Below are positions 1-5,476 of a DNA stretch of 5,476 nt, in pieces. The notes under the pieces were generated by a model. The model was not told the origin of the DNA and did not search any database. It saw nothing but the letters and a program-made list of their open reading frames with translations. The DNA is taken from the IMG/VR virus record IMGVR_UViG_2737471828_000001; one strand, 5' to 3'. A program made the translations under genes and the position numbers. The DNA is from a virus. Taxonomy: Duplodnaviria > Heunggongvirae > Uroviricota > Caudoviricetes. Every line of letters begins with the position of its first letter. The first letter of the stretch is position 1.

Positions 1-203
1 CGTTGTCACAGGACAGGCTCGCCATTCAGTTGATCCGCGAACGCGGTGCACTGGATGACATCCGGGCGGGACGCATTGAGCGCGCCATTTCACGCTGTCG
101 CAATATCTGGGCGTCCCTGCCGGGTGCCGGTTACGGTCAGCGTGAGCATTCACTGGAAAAACTGGTCACCGTCTGGCGTACCGCTGGCGGTGTACCGGCT
201 TAA
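1..203 (+). CDS. K: Endolysin, lambda R-type (lytic transglycosylase family), 3' fragment; gene continues upstream of the window (codon phase begins at nt 3)
   Basis: The ORF is open to the window start and ends at TAA 201-203. The translation ...NIWASLPGAGYGQREHSL... closely matches, from memory, the C-terminal region of lambda R / P2 gpK endolysin (lambda R: ...NIWASLPGAGYGQFEH...). Its position immediately upstream of lysA matches P2 order. Confidence 0.85.
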   Translation, partial: LSQDRLAIQLIRERGALDDIRAGRIERAISRCRNIWASLPGAGYGQREHSLEKLVTVWRTAGGVPA

Positions 204-217
204 ACGGAGTAAACACC

Positions 218-643
218 ATGAAGAAATTATCCCTTTCACTGATGCTGAATGTGTCGCTGACGCTGATGCTGGCACTGTCCCTGATTTACCAGCAGAGCGT
301 GGCCGTCAATTTTGTCGCCGCCTGGGCGATTCTGGCGACGGTTATCTGTGTGGTTGCCGGTGGTGTCGGCGTGTATGCCACGGAGTATGTACTGGAACTC
401 TACGGGCGGGAGCAGCCACCGGAATCGCTGGCCGTGAAGATTGTCTCGTCGCTGTTTTTGCAGCCGGTGCCGTGGCGCAGACGGGCGACGGCTCTGGTGG
501 TGATGGTGGCGACGTTTGTCTCGCTGATTGCTGCCGGGTGGATTTTTACCGCGCTGATTTATCTCATGGCGTCGCTGTTCTTCCGGTTGGTACGTACGGC
601 CTGCCGTCAGCGTTTTGAGGGGCGGGAACCATGTCAAAGCTGA
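218..643 (+). CDS. lysA: LysA-like lysis accessory membrane protein (141 aa, several predicted transmembrane segments)
   Basis: ATG at 218 is preceded by GGAG (206-209, 8-nt spacer). The 141-aa length matches P2 LysA (from memory). The translation is dominated by hydrophobic stretches (LMLNVSLTLMLALSLIY, AAWAILATVICVVAGGVGVY, ALVVMVATFVSLIAAGWIFTALIYLMASLFF), consistent with a polytopic inner-membrane protein. The 3' end overlaps the lysB start by 13 nt. Confidence 0.85.
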   Translation: MKKLSLSLMLNVSLTLMLALSLIYQQSVAVNFVAAWAILATVICVVAGGVGVYATEYVLELYGREQPPESLAVKIVSSLFLQPVPWRRRATALVVMVATFVSLIAAGWIFTALIYLMASLFFRLVRTACRQRFEGREPCQS

Positions 644-1056
644 TGACTGTGCTGGTTGTGTTGTTATCGCTGGCGGTGGCTGGTCTGTTTCTGGTGAAAC
701 ACAAAAATGCCAGCCTGCGCGCCTCGCTGGACAGGGCGAATAACGTCGCCAGTGAACAGCAGGCGACCATCACCATGCTGAAAAATCAGCTTCATGTTGC
801 CATCACCAGGGCAGACAAAAACGAGCTGGCGCAGGTTGCACTGCGTCAGGAACTGGAAAACGCCGCGAAGCGTGAAGCACAGCGCGAGAAAACCATCACG
901 AGGTTACTTAATGAAAACGAAGATTTTCGCCGCTGGTATGGCGCTGACCTGCCTGATGCTGTGCGCCGGTTGCACCAGCGTCCGGCCTGCACCGACGCCA
1001 GTGATTGTCGCCAACGCCTGCCCGAAAGTGAGTCTTTGCCCGATGCCGGGCAGTGA
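631..1056 (+). CDS. lysB: LysB, i-spanin (Rz-like): N-terminal transmembrane anchor plus charged, likely coiled-coil periplasmic domain
   Basis: ATG at 631 is preceded by GAGG (617-620). The N-terminus LMTVLVVLLSLAVAGLFLV is a single transmembrane helix, followed by a charged helical region (ELAQVALRQELENAAKREAQREK). The 141-aa length and position match P2 lysB. Confidence 0.85.
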   Translation: MSKLMTVLVVLLSLAVAGLFLVKHKNASLRASLDRANNVASEQQATITMLKNQLHVAITRADKNELAQVALRQELENAAKREAQREKTITRLLNENEDFRRWYGADLPDAVRRLHQRPACTDASDCRQRLPESESLPDAGQ

Positions 1057-1201
1057 CCCGCAGACGAACGGCGATTTAAGTGCCGATATCCGGCAGCTTG
1101 AGAACGCGCTGGCACGCTGTGCCAGCCAGGTAAAAATGATTAAACACTGTCAGGACGAAAACGATGCTCAAACCCGACAGCCTGCGCAGGGCGCTGACTG
1201 A
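911..1201 (+). CDS. lysC: LysC, o-spanin (Rz1-like outer-membrane lipoprotein), encoded in the +1 frame inside lysB and extending into R
   Basis: ATG at 911 is preceded by GAGG (900-903). The N-terminus MKTKIFAAGMALTCLMLCAGC|TSV looks like a lipoprotein signal, with a lipobox-like L-C-A-G-C and candidate acylated Cys at codon 21 (nt 971-973). The mature part is proline-rich (RPAPTPV...CPMPGSDP) with conserved Cys residues. The 96-aa length and embedded arrangement match P2 lysC. The six-frame track ORF 794..1201 contains this as an internal start. Confidence 0.8.
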   Translation: MKTKIFAAGMALTCLMLCAGCTSVRPAPTPVIVANACPKVSLCPMPGSDPQTNGDLSADIRQLENALARCASQVKMIKHCQDENDAQTRQPAQGAD

Positions 1202-1631
1202 TGCCGTCACGGTGCTGAAAACCAGTCCAGAGATGCTGCGGATATTCGTGGATAACGGGAGTATTGCCTCCACACTGGCGACGTCGCTGTCATTCGAAAA
1301 GCGTTACACGCTCAATGTGATTGTGACCGACTTTACCGGTGATTTTGACCTGCTCATCGTGCCGGTGCTGGCGTGGCTGCGGGAAAATCAGCCCGACATC
1401 ATGACCACCGACGAAGGCCAGAAAAAGGGCTTCACGTTTTATGCGGACATCAACAATGACAGCAGCTTTGATATCAGCATCAGCCTGATGCTGACTGAGC
1501 GCACGCTGGTCAGTGAGGTTGACGGCGCGCTGCATGTGAAGAATATCCCGGAACCCCCGCCGTCGGAGCCGGTCACCCGCCCGATGGAGCTTTATATCAA
1601 TGGTGAACTGGTGAGTAAGTGGGATGAATGA
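1164..1631 (+). CDS. R: Tail completion protein R (155 aa)
   Basis: ATG at 1164 is preceded by AGGA (1152-1155). The 155-aa length and position after lysC match P2 gpR. The 3' end overlaps the S start by 8 nt (ATGAATGA). Confidence 0.9.
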   Translation: MLKPDSLRRALTDAVTVLKTSPEMLRIFVDNGSIASTLATSLSFEKRYTLNVIVTDFTGDFDLLIVPVLAWLRENQPDIMTTDEGQKKGFTFYADINNDSSFDISISLMLTERTLVSEVDGALHVKNIPEPPPSEPVTRPMELYINGELVSKWDE

Positions 1632-2076
1632 GTTTAAGCGTTTTGAAGACCGGCTGACCGGACTGATTGAGTCGCTGTCACCGTCAGGGCGTCGGCGACT
1701 GAGCGCCGAACTGGCGAAACGTCTGCGTCAGAGTCAGCAGCGCCGGGTGATGGCACAGAAAGCCCCGGACGGCACACCCTACGCACCACGCCAGCAGCAG
1801 AGCGCCAGAAAAAAGACCGGTCGCGTTAAGCGAAAAATGTTTGCGAAACTTATCACCAGTCGTTTTTTGCATATCCGCGCCAGCCCGGAACAGGCATCAA
1901 TGGAGTTTTACGGCGGGAAGTCACCGAAAATCGCCAGTGTGCATCAGTTCGGTCTGTCGGAAGAAAACCGGAAAGACGGTAAGAAAATTGATTATCCGGC
2001 GCGTCCTCTGCTCGGCTTTACCGGTGAGGATGTGCAGATGATTGAAGAGATTATCCTGGCTCACCTCGACCGTTAG
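1624..2076 (+). CDS. S: Tail completion protein S (150 aa)
   Basis: ATG at 1624 overlaps the R stop. The 150-aa length and position match P2 gpS. The ORF ends at TAG 2074-2076 and is followed by the only sizeable intergenic gap in the window. Confidence 0.9.
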   Translation: MNEFKRFEDRLTGLIESLSPSGRRRLSAELAKRLRQSQQRRVMAQKAPDGTPYAPRQQQSARKKTGRVKRKMFAKLITSRFLHIRASPEQASMEFYGGKSPKIASVHQFGLSEENRKDGKKIDYPARPLLGFTGEDVQMIEEIILAHLDR

Positions 2077-2142
2077 TTGTGCCATTCCTGACACCTCATC
2101 GTCACATTGCCGCCGGTATGACCCGGCGGCATCCTTCCCGTT
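2077..2142 (+). promoter_or_regulatory. S-V intergenic region: probable site of the late promoter for the V-W-J-I-H operon and/or the end of the upstream lysis/R/S transcription unit; contains a GC-rich hairpin at 2108-2131
   Basis: This is a 66-bp non-coding gap in an otherwise overlapping gene block. It holds an inverted repeat TGCCGCCGG / CCGGCGGCA (9-bp stem, 6-nt loop TATGAC), a TGT(2078-2080)-N10-ACA(2091-2093) dyad, and a TATGAC -10-like hexamer at 2117-2122. P2 is known to carry a late promoter (P_V) upstream of V. Confidence 0.35.
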
Positions 2143-2778
2143 ATGAACACTCTCGCAAATATTCAGGAACTCGCGCGCGCACTGCGCAACATGATACGCA
2201 CCGGCATTATCGTCGAAACCGACCTTAACGCCGGTCGCTGCCGTGTGCAGACCGGCGGCATGTGCACCGACTGGCTTCAGTGGCTGACCCATCGCGCCGG
2301 ACGTTCGCGCACATGGTGGGCACCTTCCGTGGGGGAACAGGTGCTGATTCTGGCCGTTGGCGGTGAACTCGACACGGCGTTCGTTCTGCCGGGGATTTAT
2401 TCCGGCGATAACCCTGCGCCGTCTGCGTCGGCTGATGCCATGCATATCCGTTTCCCTGACGGGGCGGTGATTGAGTATGAACCCGAAACCAGTGCACTCA
2501 CGGTAAGCGGAATTAAAACGGTCAGCGTGACGGCTTCTGATTCTGTTACTGCCACGGTGCCGGTGGTCATGGTGAAAGCATCAACCCGTGTCACCCTGGA
2601 CACACCGGAGGTGGTCTGCACCAACAGGCTGATTACCGGCACGCTGGAAGTGCAGAAGGGCGGGACGATGCGCGGCAACATTGAACACACCGGCGGTGAA
2701 CTCTCATCAAACGGGAAGGTACTGCATACCCACAAACACCCCGGCGACAGCGGCGGCACAACCGGGGGACCTCTATGA
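2143..2778 (+). CDS. V: Baseplate central spike protein V (211 aa)
   Basis: The translation MNTLANIQELARALRNMIRTGIIVETDLNAGRCRVQTGG... matches P2 gpV from memory, as does the 211-aa length. The C-terminus carries HTHKHPGDSGG (HxHxH, nt 2725-2739), the apex motif of this spike family. There is no obvious Shine-Dalgarno sequence upstream. Confidence 0.92.
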   Translation: MNTLANIQELARALRNMIRTGIIVETDLNAGRCRVQTGGMCTDWLQWLTHRAGRSRTWWAPSVGEQVLILAVGGELDTAFVLPGIYSGDNPAPSASADAMHIRFPDGAVIEYEPETSALTVSGIKTVSVTASDSVTATVPVVMVKASTRVTLDTPEVVCTNRLITGTLEVQKGGTMRGNIEHTGGELSSNGKVLHTHKHPGDSGGTTGGPL

Positions 2779-3122
2779 CTGCGCGTTATCTCGGAATGAA
2801 TCGCAGTGATGGCCTGACTGTCACTGACCTTGAGCATATCAGCCAGAGTATCGGCGATATCCTGCGCACACCTGTCGGCTCACGGGTGATGCGTCGTGAT
2901 TACGGCTCGTTGCTGGCGTCAATGATTGACCAGCCGCAGACTCCGGCGCTTGAGTTGCAGATTAAGGTCGCCTGTTACATGGCAGTGCTGAAATGGGAAC
3001 CCCGCGTCACCCTGTCATCCGTCACCACTGAGCGCAGTTTTGACGGGCGAATGACGGTCACGTTAACCGGCCAGCACAACGACACCGGCCAGCCACTTTC
3101 GTTAACCATCCCTGTGAGTTGA
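2775..3122 (+). CDS. W: Baseplate wedge protein W (gp25/TssE-like, 115 aa)
   Basis: ATG at 2775 overlaps the V stop (ATGA) and is preceded by GGGGGA (2764-2769). The 115-aa length and position match P2 gpW. Confidence 0.92.
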   Translation: MTARYLGMNRSDGLTVTDLEHISQSIGDILRTPVGSRVMRRDYGSLLASMIDQPQTPALELQIKVACYMAVLKWEPRVTLSSVTTERSFDGRMTVTLTGQHNDTGQPLSLTIPVS

Positions 3123-3126
3123 AACC

Positions 3127-4035
3127 ATGCCGATTATCGACCTGAACCAGCTACCCGCACCGGATGTGGTCGAGGAGCTGGACTTTGAAACCATTCTCGC
3201 CGAACGCAAGGCGACACTGATTTCCCTTTACCCGGAAGACCAGCAGGAGGCGGTCGCCCGTACCCTGACGCTGGAATCTGAGCCTCTCGTCAAACTGCTG
3301 GAGGAAAATGCTTATCGTGAGCTTATCTGGCGTCAGCGTGTGAATGAGGCCGCACGGGCTGTGATGCTGGCCTGTGCAGCCGGTAATGACCTTGATGTGA
3401 TTGGTGCCAATTACAACACCACGCGCCTGATTATCACTCCGGCAGATGATTCGACCATCCCGCCGACACCGGCAGTGATGGAATCTGATACCGATTATCG
3501 TCTGCGTATTCAGCAGGCGTTTGAAGGTTTAAGCGTCGCCGGGTCGGTGGGTGCCTATCAGTATCATGGTCGCAGTGCTGACGGGCGTGTCGCGGATATC
3601 TCTGTCACCAGTCCGTCTCCGGCCTGCGTCACCATCTCTGTGCTGTCACGTGAGAATAACGGTGTCGCATCCGAAGACCTGCTGGCGGTGGTGCGCAACG
3701 CCCTTAATGGTGAGGACGTCAGGCCGGTGGCCGACCGCGTGACCGTGCAGTCTGCCGCCATCGTTGAATACCAGATAAACGCCACGCTTTACCTTTACCC
3801 TGGTCCTGAAAGCGAACCCATCCGCGCTGCTGCCGTGAAAAAACTGGAAGCGTACATCACGGCACAGCACCGGCTGGGGCGCGACATCCGTCTGTCTGCC
3901 ATTTATGCCGCTTTGCATGTGGAAGGCGTGCAGCGTGTCGAGCTGGCCGCACCACTGGCCGACATTGTGCTCAACAGTACGCAGGCGTCTTTCTGCACCG
4001 AATACAGCGTCGTGACCGGAGGCTCGGATGAGTGA
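3127..4035 (+). CDS. J: Baseplate assembly protein J (gp6/TssF-like, 302 aa)
   Basis: ATG at 3127 lies 4 nt after the W stop. The 302-aa length matches P2 gpJ. Conserved synteny W-J-I. Confidence 0.92.
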   Translation: MPIIDLNQLPAPDVVEELDFETILAERKATLISLYPEDQQEAVARTLTLESEPLVKLLEENAYRELIWRQRVNEAARAVMLACAAGNDLDVIGANYNTTRLIITPADDSTIPPTPAVMESDTDYRLRIQQAFEGLSVAGSVGAYQYHGRSADGRVADISVTSPSPACVTISVLSRENNGVASEDLLAVVRNALNGEDVRPVADRVTVQSAAIVEYQINATLYLYPGPESEPIRAAAVKKLEAYITAQHRLGRDIRLSAIYAALHVEGVQRVELAAPLADIVLNSTQASFCTEYSVVTGGSDE

Positions 4036-4639
4036 TTCGCGCCTGCTGCCGACCGGCTCATCACCGCTTGAAGTTGCCGCCGCAAAAGCCTGTGCGGAAA
4101 TTGAAAAAACGCCGGTCAGTATTCGTGAGCTGTGGAACCCGGACACCTGCCCGGCAAATCTGCTGCCGTGGCTGGCGTGGTCATTTTCGGTTGACCGCTG
4201 GGATGATAAGTGGCCGGAAGCGACAAAACGCGCTGTTATCCGCGATGCGTATTTCATTCACTGCCATAAGGGCACTATAGGCGCAATCCGGCGTGTGGTG
4301 GAGCCGCTCGGCTATCTGATTGAGGTGAGGGAGTGGTGGCAACTCAATGAGGAGCCGGGGACGTTCCGCATCGTTGTTGGTGTGCTTGAGCAGGGTATTA
4401 CCGAGGAAATGTATCAGGAGCTGGAGCGCCTCGTTGCTGATGCAAAACCGGCGAGCCGCCATCTGACGGGACTGGCTATCAGTTTAAGTACAACCGGCAA
4501 CATTTTTGCCGGTGCGGGATGCTATCACGGTGACGCCCTGACGGTTTATCCCTACACCCCGGAGGCCATTATTGTCGGAGGGGATTATTTCCCGGCCTCG
4601 GCCATTCATTTAATTGATAACCTGAGAGTAAACGCATGA
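4028..4639 (+). CDS. I: Baseplate / tail protein I (203 aa)
   Basis: ATG at 4028 is preceded by GGAGG (4018-4022) and overlaps the J stop by 8 nt. The N-terminus MSDSRLLPTGSSPLEVAAAKACAEIEKTPVSIRELWNPDTCPANLLPWLAW... matches P2 gpI as I recall it. The stop TGA 4637-4639 overlaps the H start (ATGA). Confidence 0.88.
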   Translation: MSDSRLLPTGSSPLEVAAAKACAEIEKTPVSIRELWNPDTCPANLLPWLAWSFSVDRWDDKWPEATKRAVIRDAYFIHCHKGTIGAIRRVVEPLGYLIEVREWWQLNEEPGTFRIVVGVLEQGITEEMYQELERLVADAKPASRHLTGLAISLSTTGNIFAGAGCYHGDALTVYPYTPEAIIVGGDYFPASAIHLIDNLRVNA

Positions 4640-5476
4640 CAGTGAAATACTACGCCATTCTGACTAATCAGGGCGCAGCACGGCTGGCTAACGCGACGAT
4701 GCTCGGCAGTAAGCTGAATCTGACGCAAATGGCCGTTGGTGATGCGAATGGTGTCTTGCCGACACCAGACCCGGCACAGACAAAACTGATTAACCAGAAA
4801 CGCATCGCGCCGCTGAATCTTCTGAGTGTTGACCCGAATAACCAGAGCCAGATTATTGCGGAGCAAATCATCCCTGAGAACGAGGGCGGATTCTGGATCC
4901 GTGAGATTGGGCTTTATGATGATGAAGGCGTACTCATTGCGGTGGCGAACTGCCCGGAAACGTACAAACCGCAGTTACAGGAAGGCAGTGGTCGTACCCA
5001 GACTATCCGCATGATTCTGGTTGTCACGAATACCGAAGCCATCACGCTGAAAATCGACCCGTCGGTGGTACTGGCGACCCGTAAATACGTGGATGATGAA
5101 GTCCTGGAATTAAGGCTGTATGTGGATGACCAGATGAGAAACCACATTGCCGCACAGGATCCTCATACCCAGTATGCACAGAAACATAATCCGACATTTA
5201 CCGGAGAACCAAAAGCGCCGACGCCTGATGCAGGAAATAACACCACGCGGATTGCGACCACTGCGTTTGTACAGGCGGCTATTACCGCTCTGATTAACGG
5301 CGCGCCAGCCACGCTGGACACACTGAAAGAAATTGCCGCGGCCATTAACAATGACCCGAAATTCAGCACCACCATTAACAATGCGCTGTCAGGTAAGCAG
5401 CCACTGGATGAGACGCTGACTCATTTGAGTGGAAAGGATGTTGCCGGTCTTCTCGCATACCTTGGTTTGGGAGAAG
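4636..5476 (+). CDS. H: Tail fiber protein H, N-terminal ~280 aa (3' partial; ORF open to the window end)
   Basis: I translated the frame from ATG 4636 by hand and found no stop to nt 5476 (MTVKYYAILTNQGAARLANATMLGSKLNLTQMAVGDANG...GFWIREIGLYDDEGVLIAVAN...). The region 5206-5476 encodes ...PKAPTPDAGNNTTRIATTAFVQAAITALINGAPATLDTLKEIAAAINNDPKFSTTINNALSGKQP...LLAYLGLGE, a close relative of the conserved tail fiber segment of lambda Stf (...NNTQIANTAFVLAAIADVIDASPDALNTLNELAAALGNDPDF...LEYLGAGE), a segment of the kind shared with P2 H. The six-frame track omits this ORF only because it has no stop in the window. Confidence 0.88.
   Translation, partial: MTVKYYAILTNQGAARLANATMLGSKLNLTQMAVGDANGVLPTPDPAQTKLINQKRIAPLNLLSVDPNNQSQIIAEQIIPENEGGFWIREIGLYDDEGVLIAVANCPETYKPQLQEGSGRTQTIRMILVVTNTEAITLKIDPSVVLATRKYVDDEVLELRLYVDDQMRNHIAAQDPHTQYAQKHNPTFTGEPKAPTPDAGNNTTRIATTAFVQAAITALINGAPATLDTLKEIAAAINNDPKFSTTINNALSGKQPLDETLTHLSGKDVAGLLAYLGLGE

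What the first reader, a model, noticed from the sequence alone, without database searches (positions are those of the whole stretch)
4500..5476. Compositional break at the I/H junction: the tail fiber module looks like a horizontally exchanged cassette
Hand counts give about 60% GC within J (e.g. 3541-3600, 37/60) and 55-58% in most of I. This drops to about 47-50% from the last ~80 nt of I through H (4561-4620 28/60; 4861-4920 30/60; 5161-5220 29/60). As I recall it, the H N-terminus is recognisably related to P2 H but clearly divergent, while R/S/V/W/J look near-identical to P2. The conserved ...NTTRIATTAFV...LDTLKEIAAAINNDPKF... segment is the known recombination linker shared among unrelated tail fibers. 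This points to a host-range module swapped onto a P2-type baseplate.
Basis: partly seen in the sequence, partly recalled or inferred. Interest (0 to 1): 0.45.

Follow-up and report, generated by a model that had tools for sequence, protein, structure and literature searches.

The report
Swapped tail-fibre attachment module, P2-like prophage
This is an ordinary E. coli P2-like prophage whose baseplate genes are almost identical to phage P2 but whose fibre-attachment end (second half of gene I plus gene H) came from another lineage by recombination, a long-known kind of phage mosaicism found in about a tenth of complete E. coli genomes.

Summary
GC falls from 57.5% to 51.6% near 4561-4603, a modest step (scan-corrected p about 0.01-0.03).

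R, S, V, W, J and gpI residues 1-96 are 97-99% identical to canonical P2. gpI 97-203 is 63% identical and the H N-terminus 52%.

The P2 break lies inside gene I (4283-4317), not at the I/H junction. The same H N-terminal DNA (93-100% identical) sits on a Xuanwuvirus backbone whose J is 55% identical, which shows lateral exchange directly.

Further breaks lie at 5097/5098, the end of the fibre's baseplate-binding domain, and near 5391. A DNA-invertase crossover site occupies 5450-5475. The receptor-binding tip lies beyond the window on an invertible segment.

GC alone is not diagnostic, because canonical P2 shows a similar decline.

The arrangement is already sequenced (pro483, KC618326) and present in 569 of 5426 complete E. 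coli genomes. The one refinement is that the C-terminal half of gpI and the H N-terminal adaptor travel together. They come in two forms (short and long gpI) in three genera.

Already known; low interest.

The parts
3127..4035 (+). Gene J (baseplate wedge protein), P2-type backbone
   Evidence: 302-aa ORF. It is 99% aa identical to canonical P2 gpJ and 95-100% nt identical to P2 and Wphi in sliding windows.
4028..4639 (+). Gene I (baseplate triplex protein that holds the fibre), 203 aa, the 'long' form
   Evidence: Pfam Tail_P2_I, E 3e-56, residues 7-143. It matches pyocin R2 Tri2 PA0619 (PDB 6u5b), E 5.6e-41, over residues 3-176. P2 gpI is 176 aa. The window's protein has 27 extra C-terminal residues (alignment A2).
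4283..4317 (.). Crossover interval relative to canonical P2 and Wphi, inside the conserved RRVVEPLGYLI island of gene I (codons 86-97)
   Evidence: The last sporadic mismatch is at 4282 and the first of the dense mismatches at 4318. Max chi-square is 156, with divergence going from 3.7% to 27%. The stretch is invariant in alignment A1 across window, P2, Wphi, pro483 and Midge. Comparison with Xuanwuvirus loci also steps at about 4298. P88 versus L062 breaks at I codon about 87.
4318..4639 (+). C-terminal half of gpI (fibre tether), non-P2 type
   Evidence: It is 63% aa identical to P2 over 79 aa, 84% to Midge, 87-88% to Xuanwuvirus loci, and 100% to pro483. P2 similarity stops at about 4464. 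The P2 cryo-EM preprint places the gpI C-terminus as the fibre attachment point.
4515..4567 (.). Second, nested boundary. Downstream of it the window is 93-100% nt identical to Xuanwuvirus (P88-like) loci. It coincides with the GC step.
   Evidence: Max chi-square break at 4515 for L058, with mismatch rate going from 30% to 3%. The GC change point is at 4603.
4636..5476 (+). Gene H (tail fibre), 5' 840 nt; the ORF runs off the end of the window
   Evidence: ATG at 4636 overlaps the I stop codon. It is 99-100% aa identical to H of pro483 and KC618326.
4636..5097 (+). H N-terminal baseplate-attachment (adaptor) domain, residues 1-154
   Evidence: Pfam PF12571 Phage_tail_fib N-terminal, E 9e-63, residues 1-150. 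It is 52% identical to P2, 89% to Midge and 98-100% to Xuanwuvirus loci L055-L072. In R2 pyocin, fibre residues 1-164 suffice for baseplate attachment (PMC6116203).
5097..5098 (.). Recurrent breakpoint at H codon 154/155, just after the conserved ATRKYVDD motif
   Evidence: Max chi-square breaks fall at 5097 or 5098 in five loci on two backbones (L018, L024, L028, L062, L055). Mismatch rate goes from 2-6% to 54-58%.
5236..5364 (+). Widely shared fibre shaft/linker unit (NNTTRIATTAFV ... LDTLKEIAAAINNDPKF)
   Evidence: tblastn finds 819 phage records, including P1, lambda Stf, and Pseudomonas, Mycobacterium and Gordonia phages. The PDB hit is to a tail collar fibre (9d93), E 2e-7. KC618326 and p13P477T-2 carry two tandem 74-aa copies where the window has one. 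KC618326 identity breaks at 5391.
5450..5475 (.). Probable crossover site for a Din-type serine DNA invertase (TTCTCGCATACCTTGGTTTGGGAGAA) at the constant/variable junction of H
   Evidence: The identical site in KC618326, pro483, LR-45 and many IMG/VR loci has an inverted partner 1.7-1.9 kb downstream. A Resolvase+HTH_7 recombinase gene follows it. The partner site and the invertase lie outside the window.

Best explanation
The window is the late lysis and tail region (K-lysA-lysB-R-S-V-W-J-I-H) of a P2-like (Peduovirus) prophage of E. coli.

Up to the middle of gene I it is P2-type backbone. From 4283-4317 onward it carries a different, laterally exchanged fibre-attachment module. The join was made by homologous recombination within a short island that is conserved in all relatives (RRVVEPLGYLI).

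The module consists of two parts:
- the C-terminal half of gpI, the baseplate protein whose flexible C-terminus tethers the fibre;
- the N-terminal 154 residues of gpH, the domain that docks onto gpI.

The two parts contact each other, so they have to match and are inherited together. They exist in two forms, and each form occurs in at least three genera:
- short gpI (176 aa) with a P2-type H N-terminus;
- long gpI (201-203 aa) with the window-type H N-terminus.

Downstream the fibre is built from further exchangeable blocks. A second conserved island (ATRKYVDD, break at 5097/5098) ends the adaptor. A shaft/linker unit shared with P1, lambda Stf and many unrelated fibres follows. An invertase crossover site at 5450-5475 then leads, in all close relatives, to an invertible segment with two alternative receptor-binding tips and their chaperones.

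The lower GC (about 51%) belongs to the segment from about 4560 onward, wherever that segment is found.

Shown: the identity steps, the presence of the module on different backbones, the domain identities, and the site and its partner in relatives. Inferred: that gpI-C and gpH-N must be cognate, and that the window's own H continues into an invertible segment.
For: - Gene order and 95-97% nt identity to P2-like phages over 1-4464.
- Per-gene aa identity to P2: R, S, V, W, J and I1-96 are 97-99%, I97-203 is 63%, H1-150 is 52%.
- Breakpoint at 4318, chi-square 156.
- The island is invariant in alignment A1.
- Xuanwuvirus loci L055-L072 have J 55% aa identical but H1-150 98-100% aa and 93-100% nt identical.
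- P88 versus L062, on the same Xuanwuvirus backbone, break at I codon about 87 and carry short-I/P2-type versus long-I/window-type modules.
- Phage 186 (short) versus EtG and Midge (long) show the same two forms in Eganvirus.
- Concordance of gpI length with H N-terminus type: 72 long and 11 short loci, with no real discordance.
- Five loci break at 5097/5098.
- Pfam domains and the PA0619 match.
- The gpI C-terminus anchors gpH in P2 cryo-EM (bioRxiv 10.64898/2026.09.14.750843).
- Pyocin fibre residues 1-164 attach it to the baseplate (PMC6116203).
- The linker is found in 819 phage records.
- The crossover site, its inverted partner and the recombinase are present in relatives.
- Active inversion in P2-like prophages of E. 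coli has been reported (PMC4272514).
Against: - The direction of transfer cannot be polarised. Canonical P2 could be the recombinant and the window-type the older state on this backbone.
- No donor with near-identical gpI C-half (4318-4515) was found outside the window's own lineage. The best matches are 75-88% nt.
- The GC signal is modest, and a similar gradient exists in canonical P2. Composition therefore adds little.
- The need for cognate gpI-C and gpH-N rests on co-occurrence in a sample biased to the best 80 of at least 597 database matches, and on a low-resolution model of P2. It has not been tested.
- The invertible segment is not in the window.
Confidence: 0.85

Rival explanations
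1. The direction is reversed. The long-gpI/window-type module is the older resident of this Peduovirus backbone, and canonical P2 and Wphi acquired the short-gpI/P2-type module. The window would then be the unswapped state.
For: The long form is the more frequent in the sampled loci, 72 versus 11. It is found on four or more backbones. The window-type junction occurs in 569 of 5426 complete E. coli genomes.
Against: The sample was seeded with the window's own protein and is therefore biased. The segment from about 4560 has lower GC than its backbone in both Peduovirus and Xuanwuvirus hosts. It is almost identical between those two backbones, which points to recent movement of this form. The short form is shared with pyocin R2 PA0619 (177 aa), so both forms are old. 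Either way the region is a recombinant junction.
Confidence: 0.3
2. There was no lateral transfer. The end of I and the start of H simply evolved faster in place under diversifying selection. The GC drop reflects amino-acid and functional constraints of fibre proteins.
For: gpH is the least conserved structural protein in Peduovirus (preprint). GC declines towards the fibre tip in every P2-like phage examined. GC1 and GC2 fall as well as GC3.
Against: Divergence steps from 3.7% to 27% within 35 nt instead of rising gradually. The module is 93-100% nt identical on a backbone that is about 58% nt identical elsewhere. Five loci share one breakpoint to the nucleotide. Two discrete forms differ by a 27-aa length difference, with no intermediates.
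Confidence: 0.03
3. The GC step itself is a sampling fluctuation and carries no information. The mosaicism is real but unrelated to composition.
For: The scan-corrected significance is only about 0.01-0.03. H alone does not differ significantly in synonymous codon use, p = 0.16. Gene S has a dip of equal depth.
Against: The change point (4603) falls within about 90 nt of an independently mapped similarity boundary at 4515-4567. The same segment has about 49-50% GC on the Xuanwuvirus backbone as well.
Confidence: 0.2

Closest known systems
Escherichia phages pro483 (KR073661) and 'P2' KC618326 from O157:H43 T22 (Peduovirus pro483 / magyaro); prophage of E. coli LR-45
   Same: The whole window aligns without rearrangement at 97.2-98.1% nt. 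The mid-I junction, long gpI, H N-terminus, linker and crossover site are the same.
   Different: There are only point differences. KC618326 has two tandem 74-aa linker units where the window and pro483 have one.
Canonical bacteriophage P2 (AF063097) gpI-gpH-gpG and phage Wphi
   Same: Gene order is identical, and identity is about 95% nt and 97-99% aa from K to gpI residue about 96. H uses the same domain family (PF12571) and a homologous linker motif.
   Different: P2 gpI is 176 aa and lacks the 27-aa tail. I97-end is 63% and H1-150 is 52% identical. P2 H is 669 aa and is followed by G, with no invertase or inverted alternative tip. P2 also has orf30 between S and V, which is absent here.
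Invertible tail-fibre systems of Mu (G segment/Gin), P1 (C segment/Cin) and e14 (Pin)
   Same: A roughly 26-bp partly palindromic site sits inside the fibre gene at the constant/variable junction. In relatives there is an inverted partner, two oppositely oriented tips with Caudo_TAP chaperones, and an adjacent Resolvase+HTH_7 recombinase. The linker is 73% identical to P1 over 74 aa. That this is the layout of the Mu and P1 systems is my own knowledge.
   Different: The fibre is mounted on a P2-type baseplate through a PF12571 adaptor. The partner site and invertase are not in the window. The similarity of the site to gix, cix and hix is recalled, not tested, because the literature search for the sequences found nothing.
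R2 pyocin Tri2 PA0619 and fibre PA0620
   Same: gpI is a clear homologue of PA0619 (E 5.6e-41). The pyocin fibre attaches through its N-terminal 164 residues, and everything distal can be replaced (PMC6116203). That matches the natural breakpoint at H codon 154/155.
   Different: PA0619 is the short form (177 aa). The pyocin fibre N-terminus was not detected by sequence search with the window's H. There is no invertible segment.
Eganvirus EtG and Midge, and Xuanwuvirus 500465-2 and IMG/VR loci L055-L072
   Same: They carry the same long-gpI/window-type adaptor. I97-end is 84-88% and H1-150 is 89-100% aa identical.
   Different: Their backbones are 55-80% aa identical in J. Their fibre parts after codon 154 mostly differ.

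Membership tests
P2-like (Peduovirus) late tail/lysis gene cluster | Gene order K-lysA-lysB(-lysC)-R-S-V-W-J-I-H on one strand | tested here: met
   The ORF list matches the annotations of P2, Wphi, pro483 and LR-45 gene for gene.
P2-like (Peduovirus) late tail/lysis gene cluster | High nucleotide identity to P2 across the structural genes | tested here: met
   Identity to AF063097 is 95.9% over 1-2078 and 94.8% over 2143-4464. It is not met downstream of 4464.
Tail_P2_I (PF09684) / triplex protein Tri2 | Profile match above the curated cut-off and homology to PA0619 | tested here: met
   189.6 bits against a cut-off of 20.6. PDB 6u5b, E 5.6e-41.
P2-type tail fibre N-terminal (PF12571) | Full-length match to the 150-position N-terminal domain profile | tested here: met
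   211.2 bits, residues 1-150 against profile positions 1-150.
Horizontally exchanged (mosaic) module | Abrupt step in identity to a reference that is otherwise near-identical | tested here: met
   Divergence goes from 3.7% to 27% at 4318, chi-square 156.
Horizontally exchanged (mosaic) module | The same module, near-identical, on a distantly related backbone | tested here: met
   Identity to Xuanwuvirus loci is 93-100% nt over about 4567-5100, where J is 55% aa identical.
Horizontally exchanged (mosaic) module | Composition or codon usage distinct from the flanking genes, and specific to the swap | tested here: inconclusive
   The drop is real (57.5 to 51.6%; permutation p 0.01-0.03; codon p 0.0085). 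Canonical P2 shows a comparable gradient.
Din-invertase invertible tail-fibre segment (Mu G / P1 C type) | Crossover site inside the fibre gene | tested here: met
   The site at 5450-5475 is identical to the left site of KC618326, pro483 and LR-45.
Din-invertase invertible tail-fibre segment (Mu G / P1 C type) | Inverted partner site, alternative tip and chaperone genes, and an adjacent serine invertase | not testable with these tools
   The window ends at 5476. All of these are present in the closest relatives.
Din-invertase invertible tail-fibre segment (Mu G / P1 C type) | Actual inversion (both orientations in a population) | not testable with these tools
   This needs reads or PCR. Inversion has been reported for P2-like prophages of EPEC (PMC4272514).

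The most novel reading that the evidence does not exclude
The second half of gpI plus the first 154 residues of gpH form a discrete 'adaptor cassette' that comes in two forms. It is bounded by two conserved recombination islands, RRVVEPLGYLI in gpI and ATRxYVDD in gpH. It moves as a unit between Peduoviridae genera, independently of both the baseplate core and the receptor-binding tip. If so, natural breakpoints give exact design rules for retargeting P2-like phages and tailocins: swap I-C together with H-N, or cut at H codon 154.
Probability: 0.5. Interest if true: 0.3.

Novelty: already known. Interest (0 to 1): 0.15.

Why it matters
This finding matters little as a discovery. Mosaic tail-fibre genes in P2 relatives have been textbook material since Haggard-Ljungquist, Halling and Calendar 1992 (title seen in the reference list; its content is from my own knowledge). 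This exact arrangement is in GenBank phages and in roughly one in ten complete E. coli genomes.

Its practical value is as a clean worked example of where nature cuts and joins P2-type fibres. The cuts are in the middle of gene I, at H codon 154/155, in the repeated linker unit, and at the invertase site. That is useful for annotation, because the first 150 residues of H do not predict host range. It is also useful for engineering chimeric fibres on P2-like phages and R-type tailocins.

Tried and rejected
1. GC as stand-alone evidence of transfer. I rejected this because canonical P2, Wphi, Midge, EtG and p13P477T-2 all show GC falling from the baseplate genes into H.
2. Calling the long-gpI form '186-type'. 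I rejected this when phage 186 itself proved to have the short gpI and a P2-type H N-terminus.
3. Taking the megablast end-point 4458-4464 as the recombination junction. I rejected this because base-by-base mismatches put the step at 4318, and 4318-4464 is only about 73% identical to P2.
4. The window ends one base after the crossover site, which suggested an assembly break at the inverted repeat. Support is weak. Among the IMG/VR contigs that end downstream of I, only L074 ends similarly close to its site.
5. Reading Haggard-Ljungquist 1992 (PMC206541) and Christie & Calendar 2016 (PMC4836473). Neither is held.
6. A literature search for hix-type site sequences, to test similarity of the 26-bp site to known Din sites. 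It returned no hits.
7. A sequence search of solved structures for the H N-terminal domain. Nothing was found. Only the linker matched a tail collar fibre.
8. One apparent short-gpI/window-type H locus (L052). It is an artefact of a gene I cut by the contig start.
9. Structure prediction and the large protein-database searches were not used. The question was settled by DNA comparison.
Full report
**What the window is.**
The 5476 bases carry, on the + strand, the following genes:

| Gene | Coordinates |
|---|---|
| endolysin gene, 3' end | 3-203 |
| lysA | 218-643 |
| lysB | 631-1056 |
| R | 1164-1631 |
| S | 1624-2076 |
| V | 2143-2778 |
| W | 2775-3122 |
| J | 3127-4035 |
| I | 4028-4639 |
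| H (first 840 nt, runs off the end) | 4636-5476 |

This is the late operon layout of phage P2 (annotation of AF063097). Megablast finds 109 phage records. Of these, 71 cover at least 80% of the window, and all are P2-like phages of Escherichia, Yersinia, Salmonella and Klebsiella. The nearest complete bacterial genome, E. coli LR-45, matches the whole window without gaps at 98.1%. The window is an E. coli P2-like prophage.

**Checking the observation.**
- Over whole segments the contrast is smaller than stated. J is 58.1% GC, gene I up to 4560 is 57.0%, and 4561-5476 is 51.6%.
- A likelihood scan for one change point in the whole window picks 4603 (57.5% to 51.2%). Shuffling blocks of 3, 30 or 90 nt reaches that value in 10, 10 and 2 of 300 trials.
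- GC3 falls from 0.656 to 0.571.
- A permutation test of synonymous codon use gives p = 0.0085 for gpI 97-end plus H against the other genes, but p = 0.16 for H alone.
- A dip of the same depth occurs in gene S at 1801-2100.

**Relation to canonical P2.**

| Segment | aa identity to P2 |
|---|---|
| lysA | 90% |
| lysB | 94% |
| R | 97% |
| S | 99% |
| V | 97% |
| W | 99% |
| J | 99% |
| gpI 1-96 | 98% |
| gpI 97-203 | 63% over 79 alignable residues |
| H 1-150 | 52% |
| H 151-280 | 53% |

P2 gpI has 176 residues and the window's has 203, with a 27-residue C-terminal extension.

At the DNA level, mismatches to P2 are sporadic up to 4282 and dense from 4318. A maximum chi-square scan puts the break at 4318, with divergence going from 3.7% to 27% (chi-square 156). 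All alignable similarity ends near 4464.

The 35-nt crossover interval (4283-4317) encodes RRVVEPLGYLI. It is invariant in an alignment of window, P2, Wphi, pro483 and Midge. The junction with respect to P2 is thus in the middle of gene I, about 320 nt upstream of the I/H boundary.

**Direct evidence for lateral exchange.**
Eighty related loci from IMG/VR, together with the GenBank phage records and one E. coli genome locus fetched separately, fall into backbone groups.
- Peduovirus-like loci have J at least 98% identical to the window.
- Eganvirus-like loci have J at 77-81%.
- Xuanwuvirus (P88-like) loci have J at 55% aa and about 58% nt.

The Xuanwuvirus loci L055-L072 nevertheless have an H N-terminal domain 98-100% aa identical to the window's. 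It is 93-100% nt identical from about 4567 to about 5100, and in L058 and L060 to about 5400. Against these loci the mismatch rate steps down at about 4298 and again at 4515.

The second step coincides with the GC change point. The segment has about 49-50% GC on the Xuanwuvirus backbone too. So the low GC belongs to this segment wherever it sits.

Conversely, three loci with the window's own backbone (L018, L024, L028) and two Xuanwuvirus loci (L062, L055) all diverge from the window at 5097 or 5098. That is H codon 154/155, immediately after the conserved ATRKYVDD motif and at the end of the Pfam PF12571 domain.

**Two adaptor forms.**
gpI length and H N-terminus type always go together. There are 72 loci with long gpI (201-203 aa) and the window-type N-terminus, and 11 with short gpI (176 aa) and the P2-type N-terminus. 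The only apparent exception is a gene cut by a contig end.

Both forms occur in each of three genera:

| Genus | Short gpI | Long gpI |
|---|---|---|
| Peduovirus | P2, Wphi | pro483 and the window |
| Xuanwuvirus | P88 | 500465-2, L062 |
| Eganvirus | 186 | EtG, Midge |

P88 and L062 share 99% identity over gpI 1-96 and break at codon about 87. That is the same island as in the window.

**Why these two pieces travel together.**
- gpI is a homologue of the R2 pyocin triplex protein PA0619 (E 5.6e-41).
- A 2026 cryo-EM preprint on P2 states that each wedge holds two gpJ and one gpI. It states that the gpI C-terminus connects to the gpH trimer, and that the adaptor domain of gpH binds gpI through beta-sheet contacts. 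The gpI region after R153 is flexible (10.64898/2026.09.14.750843).
- For pyocin R2, fibre residues 1-164 are enough for baseplate attachment and the rest can be replaced (PMC6116203).

The part of gpI that loses all similarity to P2, from about residue 146, is therefore the tether. The natural breakpoint at H codon 154/155 matches the engineered fusion point. That the two halves must be cognate is an inference from this and from the co-occurrence table.

**The rest of H in the window.**
tblastn with residues 184-280 finds 819 phage records. They include P1 (73% over 74 aa), lambda-type Stf (55%), and Pseudomonas, Mycobacterium, Gordonia, Rhodobacter and Caulobacter phages. The claim that the segment is shared among unrelated fibres therefore holds.

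KC618326 and p13P477T-2 have two tandem 74-aa copies of this unit and the window has one. KC618326 identity breaks at 5391. This fits unequal recombination within the unit.

**The window's last 26 bases.**
The last 26 bases but one (5450-5475, TTCTCGCATACCTTGGTTTGGGAGAA) are identical to the left arm of an inverted repeat in KC618326, pro483, LR-45 and many IMG/VR loci. The partner lies 1.7-1.9 kb downstream. Between the arms lie two oppositely oriented tail-fibre assembly genes and an alternative fibre tip. A Resolvase+HTH_7 recombinase gene follows.

That is the layout of the Mu G and P1 C segments (my own knowledge). Inversion in P2-like prophages of E. coli has been shown experimentally (PMC4272514). 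The receptor-binding part of this fibre is therefore outside the window and is itself switchable.

**Limits of the composition argument.**
In canonical P2 the same series runs 57.1% (R to gpI codon 97), 53.3% (rest of I), 56.9%, 53.6% and 47.1% along H. Wphi, Midge, EtG and p13P477T-2 behave alike. A GC decline toward the fibre tip is thus general in this family. It cannot by itself show that this window differs from P2.

**Verdict.**
- The direction of exchange is not resolved.
- The arrangement is already in GenBank. pro483 is 97.2% identical over the whole window. KC618326 is 97.5% identical up to 5391, where its second linker unit begins.
- The junction region 4100-5476 is present at 80% coverage or more in 569 of 5426 complete E. 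coli genomes.

It is a clear example of a known phenomenon.

Noticed in passing
window 5450-5476: A 26-bp partly palindromic DNA-invertase crossover site sits at the very end of the window, which stops one base after it. In relatives this is the left boundary of an invertible tail-fibre segment. The window may come from a contig that broke at that repeat. Among the other IMG/VR contigs that end downstream of gene I, only L074 also ends within 3 nt of its site.
   Followed up: partly
window 2077-2142: The S-V intergenic region is only 66 nt. Canonical P2 carries the non-essential reverse-strand gene orf30 (786 nt) here. The window, Wphi and pro483 lack it.
   Followed up: partly
L001 8236-8679 (KC618326 H) versus window 5233-5476: KC618326 and plasmid-prophage p13P477T-2 have two tandem 74-aa copies of the linker unit (54% nt identical to each other). 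The window and pro483 have one, a 222-nt length difference that starts at window 5391.
   Followed up: yes
window 5097-5098: Five independent loci on two different backbones (L018, L024, L028, L062, L055) lose identity to the window at the same nucleotide, just after the conserved ATRKYVDD motif of H.
   Followed up: yes
window 1801-2100: GC dips locally to 49-51% in the 3' half of gene S, as deep as the drop in H, although this region is 99% aa identical to P2.
   Followed up: no
window 4201-4500: GC skew is strongly positive (0.22-0.26) across the middle of gene I, the highest in the right half of the window. It spans the crossover interval.
   Followed up: no
window about 938-1201: An ORF overlapping lysB and R in another frame corresponds to the Rz1-like lysC annotated in P2, Wphi and E. 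coli LR-45.
   Followed up: no
L090 5963-5988 (phage 186 gene K): The GenBank record of phage 186 annotates a 'Mu-like inversion crossover site' inside its fibre gene, although 186 has no invertible segment there. It matches the window's site at only 12 of 26 positions and looks like a relic.
   Followed up: partly
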